DNA of 64,000 bases from an uncultured beta proteobacterium (lineage in GTDB: Bacteria > Pseudomonadota > Gammaproteobacteria > Burkholderiales > SG8-39). The translations under genes and the position numbers were made by a program. Under the pieces are notes generated by a model that saw only the letters and a list, made by a program, of their open reading frames with translations, ran no database searches and was not told where the DNA came from. The stretch lies in the NCBI GenBank assembly GCA_963762785.1, contig CAVXND010000010.1, positions 8,368 through 72,367 of the forward strand. Direction: 5' to 3'. This document shows, piece after piece, positions 60,385 through 62,407 of the stretch (positions are counted from its first letter, which is position 1; each line of letters begins with the position of its first letter).

Positions 60385-60703
60385 TTGGGATCGCGTTCCC
60401 GCCCCCAACCCCGATCGCCACCGAGCCGCGCACGCCCCTTCGGCGTCGTCGCTCGCCACAACCCCTCGCGTTGACCCCCCAAAAGCCCTCTGCCATAGTG
60501 CGCTCATCACCCTCCGCGCACCGGCATGCACCCCCTCTCATCCATGCGCGCCACGCCGCGCAGCTCGCCGCACCCGCGGCCCGATTCAATTCCCAAGCAC
60601 AACCGCTCGCGCGTTGAATCCAGCGGTTCAGTTCAACTGACCGTATCCGCCATGCTCACGCACGACGGATACGATCCTGTTCGTTAGAGGCCTCACCAAC
60701 GTC

Positions 60704-61363
60704 ATGGCTCGTCCGAAGTCAGCAAAGATTCGCGTGCGCTGCGGTGACCGACTGTTCGACTTCATGTGGGCTAACGTCGGCCCTGACGACACCGTGCTAT
60801 TGGGGCTTGGGTTCGAGGGGCAGCAGCAGATTGAGCTCGTCATCGACCGCCACCTCGGTGAACTTCGACCTCCGGACATCCAAGCTCCTCGCCTTGTTCG
60901 ACAGCCGAAGATCACTTTTCACCCATCCGGTCACTACAAGCTTGAGGTTCAGATGGGCCTCAACCCTAACGCGCTTGACCGCTCTACTGTCATCGGGCCG
61001 AGGCTCCAGGACATCACGGGCTCTCGTCGCATGGTTGAAGTGCTTTTGCCCGCGCAATTGCCTGTTGCTCGCGAGCAGCCTTCGGAGCGAGACATAGTCC
61101 TTGATGCCACAACCGCACCGCGAACACCACTCGTTTGCACAATATCGTGTGTGTCAGACGCCAGGTTCCCGGAAATGGTCGCGCCGAACGTCAAGGTCGT
61201 CGGCAACTCTGACTGGGAGTTCACCCACGCGCTGACGTCCGGTACTCATTCGTGGGTCTGGACGCTTCGCACCTCACCTGTGCACACTGAGTACCCGAAT
61301 CGCTTCATCATCGGGCTCTTGGGAGAAGTGAGGTGGGGACAGGACATCGACGCGCCGGTCTGA
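60704..61363 (+). CDS. Hypothetical protein (219 aa), no recognisable family, lower-GC islet
   Basis: This is the only long ORF here. GC is about 58% by hand count against about 70% in the flanks. I found no motifs. The start is uncertain because the SD is weak. Confidence 0.5.
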   Translation: MARPKSAKIRVRCGDRLFDFMWANVGPDDTVLLGLGFEGQQQIELVIDRHLGELRPPDIQAPRLVRQPKITFHPSGHYKLEVQMGLNPNALDRSTVIGPRLQDITGSRRMVEVLLPAQLPVAREQPSERDIVLDATTAPRTPLVCTISCVSDARFPEMVAPNVKVVGNSDWEFTHALTSGTHSWVWTLRTSPVHTEYPNRFIIGLLGEVRWGQDIDAPV

Positions 61364-61405
61364 GTCCCCTGTGACGCGACGCGCCCAGTCAGCTCAAGAG
61401 GTGAT

Positions 61406-61507
61406 GCCTAACCCCGCGTTCGAGCGGACGGCCGCAAGCGCGCTTCGCTTGCTTGCGGTGCCCTCCTCGCTACGCTCGTCGACCGCCGCTCAACGCGAGC
61501 GTTGGGC
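61406..61507. repeat. Palindromic intergenic repeat, copy 1 (about 102 bp)
   Basis: The left arm GCCTAACCCCGCGTTCGAGCGGAC and the right arm GCCGCTCAACGCGAGCGTTGGGC are imperfect reverse complements. An inner hairpin CCGCAAGC/GCTTGCGG is present. The ends are shared with copies 2 and 3. Confidence 0.7.
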
Positions 61508-61529
61508 CTCATAGAACACCACTTCGGGG

Positions 61530-62252
61530 ATGCCACTTCCTAATCCGCCAAGCGGTTGGGGCGGCGATGAACTCACGAAGTTCATCGATATGGCGCGGCT
61601 TAACGCCTACGCAACGTTTGACAATCTAAAGAACGAGTATGGTCGGCTATCCGGCATCGATGCTGGACTCCGGAAGCTGATCGATAACCTAACCAATACG
61701 AACGACTGGTTCGCCGCCTTCTTTCTGCTACGCGCTCATTCGGCGCTCCTAAGCGCCATTCAACTCGTCATGTCTGGCCAGGTTCACGAGGCGTATGCGA
61801 CCCTTCGCCTGGCTATCGAACACACGCTTTACGGCTTCTATCTCGCCAAGAACCCGGGCTCACGGGAAACGTGGCTACGCCGGCACGACGGAGAAGATGG
61901 AAAGAAGAAGGTCCGCGAGGAGTTCAAGTACAGGACGCTGGTAGATACGCTGAAGGCCGTCGACGCGACGGAAGGAGCGGTGGCCGAAACCTTGTACGAG
62001 CGCACTATCGACTATGGTGCTCATCCCAATGAGCAGGCTCTAATGCAGGCGCTACAAATGAATAGGGGCGAAGATAGAATCGAATTTCAAGTGATCTACC
62101 TTAGCGGGGACTCTCTACCCCTGAGGCTTGTCCTTAAGACAGCGGCTCAAGTCGGCGTATGCACGCTGGGGGTCTTTCGGCTCATCTACAAGGAACGCTT
62201 TGATCTTCTTGGCCTGACGGAGACCCTTCATCAGTTGCGGCAAGGGCTATGA
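61530..62252 (+). CDS. Hypothetical protein (240 aa), predicted mostly helical, no recognisable family
   Basis: A long ORF at about 52% GC. The core ...SGQVHEAYATLRLAIEHTLYGFYL... is the most conserved-looking stretch. The start is uncertain (alternative ATG at 61590). Confidence 0.55.
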   Translation: MPLPNPPSGWGGDELTKFIDMARLNAYATFDNLKNEYGRLSGIDAGLRKLIDNLTNTNDWFAAFFLLRAHSALLSAIQLVMSGQVHEAYATLRLAIEHTLYGFYLAKNPGSRETWLRRHDGEDGKKKVREEFKYRTLVDTLKAVDATEGAVAETLYERTIDYGAHPNEQALMQALQMNRGEDRIEFQVIYLSGDSLPLRLVLKTAAQVGVCTLGVFRLIYKERFDLLGLTETLHQLRQGL

Positions 62253-62253
62253 G

Positions 62254-62337
62254 GCCCAACCATGCGATGCAGCGGACCGCTTCACAGCGGGCTTGCGCCC
62301 GCTGTTCCGCGGCCGCTGATCGCAGCCGTTAGGTGGC
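62254..62337. repeat. Palindromic intergenic repeat, copy 2 (about 84 bp, inverted orientation)
   Basis: It starts GCCCAACCATGCGATGCAGCGGACC and ends GCGGCCGCTGATCGCAGCCGTTAGGTGGC. The inner hairpin is CAGCGGGC/GCCCGCTG. Confidence 0.65.
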
Positions 62338-62407
62338 TTGCAATCAATGTACGGGGTTAATGGATTGAACAGGCGCGAAGAGCACCGGAACGTGGAGGAG
62401 GCATAGT

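What the first reader, a model, noticed from the sequence alone, without database searches (positions are those of the whole stretch)
60640..62345. Two-gene cassette of unknown function in a lower-GC islet beside an IS91/integrase element
What the sequence shows:
- Just right of the IS element, GC drops from about 70% to about 52-58%. My hand counts of 60-nt lines give 58% at 60721, 52% at 61621 and 55% at 62461.
- Two same-strand ORFs (60704..61363, 219 aa; 61530..62252, 240 aa) fill the islet, and each is followed by a copy of a palindromic repeat.
- I find no Walker motif, metal-binding motif, nuclease signature or HTH signature in either protein.
- ORF2 looks all-helical. Its core ...HEAYATLRLAIEHTLYGFYL... 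faintly recalls helical DUF4145/AbiV-type domains seen in defence islands. That is a memory-based and weak resemblance.

Inference: a compact, compositionally foreign gene pair next to a mobile element is the usual setting for defence, addiction or other accessory modules. This is the best candidate in the window for something undescribed, but nothing in the sequence tells me its activity.
Basis: partly seen in the sequence, partly recalled or inferred. Interest (0 to 1): 0.7.

Follow-up and report, generated by a model that had tools for sequence, protein, structure and literature searches.

The report
Three integron gene cassettes, not a pair
The two unknown genes are not a functional pair: each is a separate, individually mobile integron gene cassette ending in its own attC recombination site, and a third cassette follows them, so this is an ordinary kind of element carrying two uncharacterised genes.

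Summary
GC falls from about 0.70 to 0.55-0.60 at the right end of the IS91 element. ORF1 (60704-61363) and ORF2 (61530-62252) are intact, conserved genes. Each is followed by a palindromic repeat.

The repeats are integron attC sites at 61406-61507, 62254-62334 and 62957-63061:
- Each has RYYYAAC and GTTRRRY boxes.
- The bottom strand folds into a hairpin with an unpaired spacer and two bulged bases.
- All three lie on the gene strand.
- A covariance model built only from sites in other loci finds exactly these three in the 64-kb window (E 2e-13 to 8e-10).
- Each cassette's first bases are complementary to its own attC, not to the preceding one. This is the signature of G|TT crossover.

ORF1, ORF2 and the neighbouring 3-hydroxyanthranilate dioxygenase gene are therefore three single-gene cassettes. 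No true integron integrase is visible, so the array is CALIN-like and abuts the IS.

The pair is not conserved. Only 1 of 91 related loci has both genes, and there in reverse order. Elsewhere the homologues sit in arrays, once next to a true intI.

ORF2 is a DUF5677-like helical protein without a conserved HEPN motif. ORF1 is an all-beta protein with no fold match. There is no direct evidence for defence.

The parts
60684..61501 (+). Cassette 1 (818 bp): a single gene (ORF1) plus its attC1. The proposed 5' boundary is G|TTAGAG at 60683/60684.
   Evidence: The right boundary is the G of GTTGGGC at 61501. The left boundary is inferred from GTTAGAG at 60683-60689, 21 nt before the ATG. Only its first 5 bases match the complement of attC1's R'' side, so this boundary is less certain. 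GC is 0.609.
60704..61363 (+). ORF1: 219-aa all-beta protein of a small uncharacterised family (a cassette gene of unknown function).
   Evidence: 39 homologues, all hypothetical. 79 representatives among 1.84 billion proteins, all single-domain and about 215 aa. 23 invariant residues. AF2 pLDDT 80.7, pTM 0.81. No Foldseek match in PDB or BFVD. No family hit in any library.
61406..61507 (+). attC1 (102 nt): GCCTAAC-CCCGC-GTTCGAGC ... GCTCAAC-GCGAGC-GTTGGGC.
   Evidence: Model R2, built without any window site, gives 60.3 bits, E 2e-13 on the + strand and 13.5 bits on the - strand. The bottom-strand fold shows an R stem, an internal loop, an L stem with bulged T and G, and a variable tip. It is about 93% identical to an attC in a Casimicrobiaceae MAG, L041 1037-1138.
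61502..62328 (+). Cassette 2 (827 bp): a single gene (ORF2) plus its attC2.
   Evidence: The first 13 bases of the cassette plus the preceding G (GTTGGGCCTCATAG, 61501-61514) are the exact reverse complement of 62247-62260, the R'' side of the cassette's own attC2 (14/14; I20, 99). The same split repeat flanks ORF2 homologues in L013, L028, L035, L036, L024, L031 and L041.
61530..62252 (+). ORF2: 240-aa all-helical DUF5677-related protein. Its stop codon lies inside attC2's stem extension.
   Evidence: 344 homologues. 30 of 37 family members hit PF18928 at E<=0.01. phrog_36906, E 1.3e-7. AF2 pLDDT 89.3. The best-probability Foldseek hits are HEPN domains, but with E>0.1. Invariant residues are E87, R93, E97, Y101, G163 and P166; position 98 is not conserved.
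62254..62334 (+). attC2 (81 nt): GCCCAAC-CATGC-GATGCAGC ... GCTGATC-GCAGCC-GTTAGGT.
   Evidence: R2 gives 47.9 bits, E 3.2e-10, + strand. The bottom-strand hairpin has -33.1 kcal/mol, z -7.0, and two bulged bases.
62329..63055 (+). Cassette 3 (727 bp): the 3-hydroxyanthranilate 3,4-dioxygenase gene (62408-62941) plus attC3.
   Evidence: PF06052 E 1.8e-45. NF009763 220.9 bits, at its cut-off, and TIGR03037 213.5 bits against a cut-off of 146. The cassette start GTTAGGTGGC is complementary to attC3's own R'' side (10/10). GC3 is 0.64.
62957..63061 (+). attC3 (105 nt): ACCTAAC-CAGCC-GTTCGAGC ... GCTCAAC-GGCATC-GTTGGGC.
   Evidence: R2 gives 46.3 bits, E 8.3e-10, + strand. The fold has bulged T and G. 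It is 74-84% identical to attC1 (D1 and D3).
58241..60682 (+). Flanking IS91-family element: a tyrosine recombinase (58241-59182) and a frameshifted IS91 transposase (59189-60617). The putative right end is a stem-loop at 60642-60673 followed by GTTC at 60679-60682. This is context, not part of the array.
   Evidence: Pfam and NCBIfam hits. The integrase scores 188.5 bits on TIGR02249, below the cut-off of 265, in two stretches, so it is not an integron integrase. The stem-loop is seen in the fold. The IS end and the GTTC target are inferred from general knowledge of IS91, not tested.

Best explanation
The low-GC stretch right of the IS91 element is an array of at least three integron gene cassettes. 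Each cassette is one gene followed by its own attC recombination site. ORF1, ORF2 and the 3-hydroxyanthranilate dioxygenase gene are three independent cassettes, not an operon.

How it works (established integron biology):
- The bottom strand of an attC folds into a hairpin.
- An integron integrase (IntI) recombines two such hairpins at G|TT, excising one gene plus attC as a circle.
- IntI then inserts that circle at an attI site (or, less often, an attC site) of an integron.
- Each gene therefore travels alone between arrays and hosts.

In this window no true IntI is visible. The array is a cluster of attC sites lacking an integrase (CALIN-like), and the IS91-family element abuts its 5' end.

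Inferred steps, not shown here:
- The cassettes have 5' leaders of only 20-79 nt and probably lack promoters. Expression would then depend on read-through from the same-strand IS genes.
- They could still be mobilised by an IntI encoded elsewhere in the genome.

The two proteins:
- ORF2 is a DUF5677-related helical protein with a conserved polar site: E87, R93, E97 and Y101 on one helix, plus a D161-x-G-A-H-P-N-E168 loop.
- ORF1 is an all-beta protein with no recognisable relatives of known function.
- My best guess for both is a stand-alone accessory or stress function, possibly phage defence. That is a prior for cassettes of unknown function, not a result.
For: Shown in the window:
1. Three sites carry the attC boxes RYYYAAC - 5 nt - L'' ... 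L' - 6 nt - GTTRRRY. Each lies on the + strand right after a + strand ORF. The boxes and the unpaired features match the published description of attC (PMC5027507).
2. Covariance model R2 was built only from 20 sites flanking homologues in other loci. It hits exactly these three sites in 64 kb on both strands (60.3, 47.9 and 46.3 bits; E 2e-13, 3e-10 and 8e-10). The next best hit is 16.7 bits. The same sites read on the minus strand score 11-13 bits.
3. The bottom strands fold with an R stem, an internal loop, an L stem carrying two single-base bulges 7 positions apart (T and G in attC1 and attC3; T and C in attC2), and a variable tip.
4. There is a register shift. The GTTRRRY box and the bases after it at the end of attC1 are complementary to attC2's R'' side (14/14), not attC1's (3 leading matches). 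Those at the end of attC2 are complementary to attC3's R'' side (10/10). This is expected if the crossover is at G|TT.
5. Cassette sizes are 818, 827 and 727 bp with one ORF each. GC3 is 0.64-0.68, against 0.90-0.99 in the host genes.

Shown in related loci:
6. The two genes are independent. Only 1 of 91 loci holds both, in reverse order, and neither has a recurrent neighbour.
7. Model R1 finds 40 sites at E<=1e-3 in 74 loci, 39 of them on the gene strand. Sites lie directly after ORF1 homologues in 9 loci and after ORF2 homologues in 8.
8. L072 has a true intI on the opposite strand (TIGR02249 376.7 bits against a cut-off of 265), followed by cassette, attC, ORF1 homologue, attC.
9. L013 (Thiomonas) has a degraded intI followed by cassettes that include an ORF2 homologue.

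Definition: a CALIN is at least two attC sites without a neighbouring integron integrase (PMC4889954).
Against: - No integron integrase, attI or Pc promoter is visible in the window. The only integrase is below the IntI cut-off, lacks part of the model, and is on the cassette strand.
- The training sites for the models were picked with my own RYYYAAC/GTTRRRY plus hairpin filter. The models are therefore not the curated IntegronFinder model.
- Many homologue loci show no detectable attC, especially the distant alphaproteobacterial ORF2 relatives, and L092 for the 3-HAO gene.
- The left boundary of cassette 1 is weakly defined: only 5 of 7 box positions are complementary.
- Everything right of the IS differs in composition from the left side, so an assembly join at the IS cannot be excluded. 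That would change the host context but not the cassette reading.
Confidence: 0.9

Rival explanations
1. ORF1 and ORF2 form a two-gene functional module, such as a toxin-antitoxin, abortive-infection or other defence pair. They would be co-transcribed and act together.
For: They are adjacent, on the same strand and only 166 nt apart. They sit in foreign DNA next to a mobile element. ORF2 has a weak HEPN-like fold signal. One other locus (L068) also has both genes adjacent.
Against: - Only 1 of 91 loci has both, and there the order is reversed.
- None of the 40 genome loci with an ORF2 homologue has an ORF1 homologue.
- Each gene has variable neighbours and no recurrent partner family.
- A complete recombination site lies between the two genes.
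- There are no PADLOC hits.
Confidence: 0.03
2. The palindromic repeats are generic intergenic repeats (REP/REPIN or MITE-like hairpins, or plain terminators) of the host genome, unrelated to integrons. The genes would simply be horizontally acquired singletons.
For: - The repeats are GC-rich hairpins of 80-105 nt located after genes.
- No integron integrase is nearby.
- There is no match in Rfam.
Against: - The repeats occur only in the islet and nowhere else in 60 kb of host DNA.
- They are all in one orientation relative to the gene, with a 35-47 bit strand asymmetry.
- They carry the RYYYAAC/GTTRRRY boxes, the 5/6-nt spacers and the bulged bases of attC.
- They show the one-cassette register shift.
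- The same class of site lies next to a true intI in L072.
Confidence: 0.04
3. The genes are passenger DNA picked up and moved by the IS91-family element through rolling-circle, one-ended transposition (ISCR-like capture). They would form a transposable unit together with the IS.
For: - The first cassette begins 2 nt after the putative IS end and its GTTC target.
- IS91/ISCR elements are known to mobilise adjacent genes (general knowledge).
- The composition change coincides with the IS end.
Against: - The genes lie at the transposase-distal end, downstream of tnpA, which is the presumed oriIS end. Read-through capture happens at the other end, terIS (general knowledge of IS91/ISCR, not tested here).
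- The transposase is frameshifted.
- No homologue locus shows an IS91 element next to ORF1 or ORF2.
- This reading does not explain the attC structure.
Confidence: 0.03

Closest known systems
CALIN (cluster of attC sites lacking an integron integrase) and chromosomal integron cassette arrays, as defined for IntegronFinder (Cury et al. 2016, PMC4889954)
   Same: - At least two (here three) attC sites within 4 kb.
- One promoterless-looking ORF per cassette, all in the same orientation.
- Cassettes of 0.7-0.8 kb.
- Two of the three attC sites are similar to each other.
- Cassette genes are mostly of unknown function.
- An IS lies at the edge. The paper reports IS elements in a fourth of complete integrons and lists rearrangements as one origin of CALIN.
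   Different: - Only the first 2.4 kb of the array is visible, and its right end is not seen.
- Whether an intI exists elsewhere in the genome is unknown.
- The sites were called with home-made models, not the curated one.
Mobile-integron cassettes of unknown function (gcus), some of which are phage-defence cassettes (BRiCs; Kieffer et al., bioRxiv 10.1101/2024.07.02.601719)
   Same: - Single-gene cassettes of unknown function.
- Spread across distant taxa. ORF2 homologues share 53-60% identity across Nitrospirota, Acidobacteria, Beta- and Gammaproteobacteria and Desulfobacula MAGs.
- An ORF1 homologue sits in the cargo region of a conjugative element near Thoeris genes.
   Different: No defence phenotype, no PADLOC model and no known defence domain for either protein. 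The window array is chromosomal in appearance and is not in a class 1-5 mobile integron.
Pfam DUF5677 (PF18928) and HEPN-fold proteins such as AbiV and DUF4145
   Same: - ORF2 is all-helical.
- Residues 61-123 align to the first 67 positions of DUF5677, and 30 of 37 relatives hit it.
- The only Foldseek PDB hits with probability 0.6-0.87 are HEPN domains (2hsb, 4nqf, 2q00, Csm6).
- An invariant Arg (R93) sits on a core helix.
   Different: - The window protein scores below the Pfam cut-off (23.4 against 27.1).
- Foldseek E-values are all above 0.1.
- The defining HEPN Rx4-6H motif is not conserved. The His position is N in 24, H in 5 and other residues in 12 of 41 homologues.
- The family has its own invariant set: E87, R93, E97, Y101 and the D-x-G-A-H-P-N-E loop.

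Membership tests
Integron attC site | Inverse core site RYYYAAC (R'') at the 5' end and core site GTTRRRY (R') at the 3' end on the top strand, complementary to each other | tested here: met
   GCCTAAC...GTTGGGC, GCCCAAC...GTTAGGT and ACCTAAC...GTTGGGC. The consensus is as given in PMC5027507.
Integron attC site | An imperfect palindrome that folds as a single-strand hairpin with an unpaired central spacer, extrahelical bases on the bottom strand and a variable terminal structure. Length about 57-141 nt (the range is from memory). | tested here: met
   DNA folds of the bottom strands show an R stem, an internal loop, an L stem with two single-base bulges (T/G, T/C, T/G) and a variable tip. Lengths are 102, 81 and 105 nt.
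Integron attC site | Matches a covariance model of attC sites, strand-specifically | tested here: met
   Model R2, built without any window site, gives 46-60 bits (E 8e-10 to 2e-13) on the + strand and 11-13 bits on the - strand, with no other hit at E < 0.03 in the window. Caveat: this is a home-made model, not IntegronFinder's.
Integron gene cassette | One ORF (rarely more) with its attC at the 3' end. The cassette's first bases (TTRRRY...) belong to its own attC because the crossover is at G|TT. | tested here: met
   For cassette 2, 14 of 14 bases are complementary to its own attC. For cassette 3 the figure is 10 of 10. Against the preceding attC there are only 3-6 leading matches. Cassette 1 is weaker, with 5 leading matches.
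Integron gene cassette | Independent mobility: the same cassette is found in different arrays with different neighbours | tested here: met
   One search shows no conserved pairing. One search shows attC sites flanking the homologues in 20 or more loci. One search shows the same split repeat around ORF2 homologues in seven genomes.
Complete integron | An integron integrase (IntI, with its specific extra domain) next to the array, usually divergently oriented, together with attI and Pc | tested here: not met
   The window integrase scores 188.5 bits on TIGR02249, below the cut-off of 265, in two stretches, and lies on the same strand as the cassettes. No other IntI1-like ORF is in the window. 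A complete integron is present in the related locus L072 (376.7 bits). The window is therefore filed as CALIN-like, not as a complete integron.
Two-gene defence or toxin-antitoxin module | Conserved co-occurrence and order of the two genes across genomes | tested here: not met
   1 of 91 loci has both, with the order reversed. There are no PADLOC hits.
HEPN superfamily (ORF2) | A conserved Rx4-6H motif on the last core helix of a four-helix bundle | tested here: not met
   R93 is invariant, but position 98 is N in 24, H in 5 and other residues in 12 of 41 homologues, and there is no His at +5 or +6 in the window protein or the family consensus. The fold resemblance is only suggestive: Foldseek probability 0.6-0.87, E>0.1.
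Pfam DUF5677 (ORF2) | Score above the Pfam gathering threshold | tested here: inconclusive
   The window protein scores 23.4 bits against a cut-off of 27.1, covering only 67 of 166 profile positions. 30 of 37 relatives hit at E<=0.01, best 4.3e-7. This looks like a related, divergent subfamily.
REP/REPIN or MITE repeats | Many copies dispersed in intergenic regions of the host genome, in either orientation | tested here: not met
   There are only three copies, all within 1.7 kb and all in one orientation. None is found in the other 60 kb. The rest of the genome was not available.

The most novel reading that the evidence does not exclude
ORF1, ORF2 or both are new single-gene phage-defence (or other stress-response) cassettes of the BRiC type. 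ORF1 would then represent a beta-rich fold with no solved or predicted viral relative. ORF2 would be a HEPN-derived effector that has swapped the Rx4-6H site for an E-R-E-Y / DxGAHPNE site.
Probability: 0.15. Interest if true: 0.6.

Novelty: new member of a known kind. Interest (0 to 1): 0.3.

Why it matters
The result replaces an apparent mystery operon with a well-understood mechanism. The two genes are unrelated passengers of the integron cassette system, so they should be studied one at a time and not as a pair.

It also identifies two cassette families that are widely exchanged among environmental bacteria and have no known function. ORF2 relatives share 53-60% identity across several phyla. 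ORF1 has no fold match in PDB or BFVD. Cassettes of unknown function are a recognised reservoir of defence and other adaptive genes, so these two are reasonable entries for a functional screen. The element itself is ordinary.

Tried and rejected
- Family searches for ORF1 in Pfam, NCBIfam, PADLOC and PHROGs found nothing.
- PDB sequence-profile searches for both families found nothing meaningful.
- Foldseek of ORF1 against PDB and BFVD gave no hit; the best E-values were 0.25 and 0.10, with TM below 0.2.
- A remote profile search for ORF1 found only same-length relatives. Two weak hits fell on beta-propeller-rich giant proteins (E about 3e-4) and give no functional lead.
- I looked for a hidden conserved partner among neighbours by BLAST clustering, by profile search and by Pfam on 20 neighbours. 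None was found.
- Pfam censuses of 91 ORF1-neighbour and 124 ORF2-neighbour ORFs gave no recurrent family and no enrichment of defence or mobile-element domains.
- Rfam on 57.5-64 kb gave only chance-level hits.
- A plasmid-database search with the IS plus islet matched only a 267-nt stretch of IS91 transposase in Variovorax.
- Exact look-ups of the window's own proteins, meant to identify the source record, failed twice, so the organism is not established.
- My first attC script had a bug and printed nothing. It was replaced.
- I considered that ORF2 with its flanking inverted repeat might be a tiny IS-like element. I rejected this once the repeat proved to be the split R'/R'' of its attC.
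- I found no attC half-site or attI to the left of the IS at 57.6-58.3 kb.
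Full report
**1. The observation**

GC content behaves as described:
- In 300-nt windows it falls from 0.70-0.74 left of about 60450 to 0.55-0.60 over 60600-62850.
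- The rest of the window (4-60 kb) is 0.68-0.74.
- Third-position GC is 0.68 for ORF1, 0.64 for ORF2 and 0.64 for the next gene. The real genes on the left have 0.90-0.99.

A palindromic repeat follows each ORF. The low-GC stretch is larger than reported. It includes the next gene, a 3-hydroxyanthranilate 3,4-dioxygenase (3-HAO) at 62408-62941, and a third copy of the repeat. GC stays at 0.61-0.65 to the end of the window.

To the left lies a tyrosine recombinase (58241-59182) followed by an IS91-family transposase split over two reading frames.

**2. Both genes are real, but they are not a pair**

- ORF1 has 39 homologues in the 5.8-billion-protein collection. It has 79 representatives among 1.84 billion cluster representatives, all about 215 aa and single-domain, with 23 invariant residues.
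- ORF2 has 344 homologues, nearly all exactly 240 aa.

I fetched 91 loci around homologues of one or the other and searched all of them with both proteins. Only one locus, L068, holds both genes, and there the ORF2-like gene comes first. None of the 40 genome loci with an ORF2 homologue has an ORF1 homologue.

Neighbours were examined in three ways, and none showed a recurrent partner for either gene:
- BLAST clustering and profile searches.
- Pfam on 20 immediate neighbours.
- Pfam censuses of 91 and 124 flanking ORFs.

**3. What the repeats are**

I tested whether ORF2 homologues are flanked by inverted repeats. The same 13-14-nt repeat, GTTGGG(G/C)CTCATA(G), brackets the gene in unrelated genomes: L013 Thiomonas, L028 Hydrogenophilaceae, L035, L036, L024, L031 and L041. 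In the window it sits at 61501-61514 and, inverted, at 62247-62260, overlapping the stop codon (I20).

This led to reading the repeats as integron attC sites. Each of the three window repeats has, on the + strand:
- RYYYAAC, then a 5-nt spacer, then an 8-nt L'' box;
- a variable palindromic centre;
- a 7-nt L' box, then a 6-nt spacer, then GTTRRRY.

These are the features given in the literature: the RYYYAAC/GTTRRRY boxes, an unpaired central spacer, extrahelical bases and a variable terminal structure (PMC5027507). Folded as single-stranded DNA, the bottom strands give exactly that. There is an R stem, an internal loop, and an L stem with two single-base bulges seven positions apart (T and G in attC1 and attC3; T and C in attC2), topped by a variable tip.

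A simple box-plus-hairpin filter finds only these three sites in the whole 64-kb window, plus one marginal hit inside ORF1 on the other strand.

**4. An independent statistical test**

I built a covariance model (R2) from 20 sites taken only from other loci, flanking ORF1 or ORF2 homologues. I then searched the whole window on both strands with filters off.
- It returns exactly the three sites on the + strand: 60.3, 47.9 and 46.3 bits, with E 2e-13, 3e-10 and 8e-10.
- The next best hit is 16.7 bits.
- The same three sites read on the minus strand score 11-13 bits.

The repeats therefore belong to one strand-specific class with the sites found next to the homologues.

A caveat applies. The training sites were selected with my own attC-like filter, so this shows class membership and specificity, not identity with the curated IntegronFinder model.

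**5. The recombination signature**

In an integron array the crossover is between the G and TT of GTTRRRY. The last bases of each cassette's attC therefore end up at that cassette's own 5' end. The window shows this shift:
- The box and following bases at the end of attC1 are complementary to the R'' side of attC2 (14 of 14), not of attC1 (3 leading matches).
- Those at the end of attC2 are complementary to the R'' side of attC3 (10 of 10), not of attC2 (3 leading matches).

This defines cassette 2 as 61502-62328 (827 bp, ORF2) and cassette 3 as 62329-63055 (727 bp, 3-HAO). Cassette 1 (ORF1) ends at 61501. It probably starts at 60684, after the G of GTTAGAG at 60683. That boundary is weaker, with only 5 leading matches.

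**6. Related loci confirm the integron context**

Model R1 over 74 loci finds 40 sites at E<=1e-3, 39 of them on the gene strand.
- Sites lie directly after ORF1 homologues in L001, L010, L062, L065, L072, L073, L076, L078 and L089.
- Sites lie directly after ORF2 homologues in L013, L022, L024, L028, L033, L035, L036 and L037.
- Several short contigs hold three to five sites.

Two loci show an integron integrase next to the cassettes:
- L072 carries a true integron integrase on the opposite strand. It has one in-frame stop. It is followed on the + strand by a cassette, an attC, the ORF1 homologue and another attC.
- L013 (Thiomonas) has a degraded intI on the opposite strand, followed by small + strand genes that include the ORF2 homologue.

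Not all homologues are in cassettes. The distant alphaproteobacterial ORF2 relatives have no detectable attC, and neither do several other loci.

**7. What the window lacks**

The integrase at 58241-59182 is not an integron integrase:
- It scores 188.5 bits on TIGR02249, below the cut-off of 265.
- The match is in two stretches.
- Its score is about the same as on the XerA model.
- It lies on the cassette strand, in front of the IS91 transposase.

No other IntI-like ORF is in the window. By the published definition, at least two attC sites without a neighbouring integron integrase (PMC4889954), the visible part is a CALIN-type array. That paper lists IS elements and rearrangements among the ways such arrays arise.

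The IS91 element seems to end at a stem-loop (60642-60673) followed by GTTC (60679-60682), two bases before the cassette start. The identification of this end, and of GTTC as the IS91 target, rests on general knowledge of the family and was not tested.

Everything right of the IS differs in composition from the left side. I cannot exclude that the contig is a chimeric join at the IS. That would change the host context, not the cassette reading.

**8. The proteins**

ORF2:
- It is all-helical in the AF2 model (pLDDT 89.3, pTM 0.85).
- It has a sub-threshold DUF5677 hit. 30 of 37 relatives hit that family at E<=0.01. There is also a hit to an unannotated PHROG.
- Foldseek against the PDB gives nothing below E 0.1. 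The only matches with appreciable probability (0.6-0.87) are HEPN domains.
- The defining HEPN Rx4-6H motif is not conserved. R93 is invariant, but the would-be His position is N in 24, H in 5 and something else in 12 of 41 homologues.
- The family's own invariant residues are E87, R93, E97, Y101, G163 and P166. H70, D161, H165, N167 and E168 are nearly invariant. This suggests a polar active or binding site of unknown chemistry.
- One preprint found DUF5677 enriched next to serine recombinases and tested one such gene for phage defence. It was not among the genes reported as protective (10.1101/2025.10.07.681051).

ORF1:
- It is all-beta in the AF2 model (pLDDT 80.7, pTM 0.81).
- It has no match in PDB or BFVD, in PDB sequences, or in any family library.

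Neither cassette has room for a second gene. The leaders are 20 and 28 nt, and the attC follows within 42 nt of the stop or overlaps it.

**9. Mechanism, with status of each step**

Shown here: three attC-bounded single-gene cassettes, their strand specificity, their register shift, and the occurrence of the same cassettes in other arrays, including next to a true intI.

Established for integrons in general: the folded bottom strand of an attC is recombined by IntI, cassettes are excised as circles and inserted at attI, and expression comes from an upstream promoter.

Inferred for this window:
- The cassettes arrived by such recombination.
- They are now without a local integrase.
- If expressed, they are transcribed by read-through from the same-strand IS genes.
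- They could be mobilised by an IntI encoded elsewhere.

Guess only: that either protein acts in phage defence. This rests on the general findings that two thirds of cassette genes are of unknown function and that defence functions are over-represented among them (PMC7370490), and that some cassettes of unknown function protect against phage (10.1101/2024.07.02.601719).

**10. Verdict**

The interpretation as a two-gene module is not supported. The element is a known kind, an integron cassette array without a visible integrase, beside an IS. It carries two cassette gene families of unknown function. I rate it as a new member of a known kind and of modest interest.

Noticed in passing
window 59189-60617: The IS91-family transposase is split over two reading frames, 59189 to about 59770 and 59766 to 60617. 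They match NF033538 positions 1-176 and 181-326 of 356. This looks like a frameshifted, probably inactive, copy.
   Followed up: partly
window 58241-59182: A tyrosine recombinase related to integron integrases but below the TIGR02249 cut-off (188.5 against 265 bits, matched in two stretches). It lies on the same strand as the IS91 transposase and directly upstream of it, so it looks like the IS91-associated integrase type and not an IntI.
   Followed up: yes
window 63114-63926 (-): A LysR-type regulator gene that holds only the substrate-binding domain. About 76 N-terminal residues, the HTH domain, are missing from the ORF. It lies just beyond attC3 on the opposite strand. It may be a truncated gene marking the end of the array.
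   Followed up: no
window 60680-64000 compared with 1-58000: All genes right of the IS have GC3 of 0.64-0.71, while real genes on the left have 0.90-0.99. Within the window, a larger island and an assembly chimera joined at the IS cannot be told apart.
   Followed up: partly
L001 6652-6720 and 10227-10286: In a conjugative element, attC-like sites lie between the T4 coupling protein gene and the trbB/trbC genes. One follows the ORF1 homologue and another lies 43 nt after the Thoeris ThsB gene. The Thoeris ThsA/ThsB genes may therefore sit in a cassette array carried by an ICE.
   Followed up: partly
L041 1037-1138 (Casimicrobiaceae MAG DAOMBL010000288.1): An attC about 93% identical to window attC1 precedes the ORF2 homologue there, but it follows a different 162-aa ORF. 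This hints that the window's host, or the array's source, is a related Burkholderiales lineage with homogeneous attC sites.
   Followed up: partly
L092 8001-8534 and L093 1830-2363: A 3-HAO protein at least 90% identical to the window's lies next to a PhD/PIN toxin-antitoxin pair in another metagenome contig. Nucleotide similarity (81%) stops at the ends of the coding sequence, and no attC was detected there. The same gene therefore occurs both as a cassette and outside one.
   Followed up: partly
window 61530-61589 and 60704-61363: The source annotation starts ORF2 20 codons late (P0040, 220 aa), although residues 1-20 are conserved in the family (P7, W10 and D20 are invariant). The exact ORF1 sequence is absent from the protein collection, so it may be unannotated or annotated with a different start in the source record.
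   Followed up: partly
window 63055-63070: The core site of attC3 and the bases after it (GTTGGGCGTCAAAGAG) resemble the 5' end of the ORF2 cassette (12 of 16). This may be a remnant of another ORF2-type cassette start, but no such gene follows.
   Followed up: no
window 57715-58074: A 119-aa ORF with host-like GC3 (0.87) lies between the last housekeeping gene and the integrase and has no hit in Pfam or NCBIfam. Whether it belongs to the IS element is unknown.
   Followed up: no
window 60150-60600: A strongly C-rich stretch (GC skew -0.28 to -0.37) with short direct repeats (CCCCAACCCCG...) lies at the 3' end of the IS91 transposase ORF, beyond the part that matches the transposase models.
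   Followed up: no
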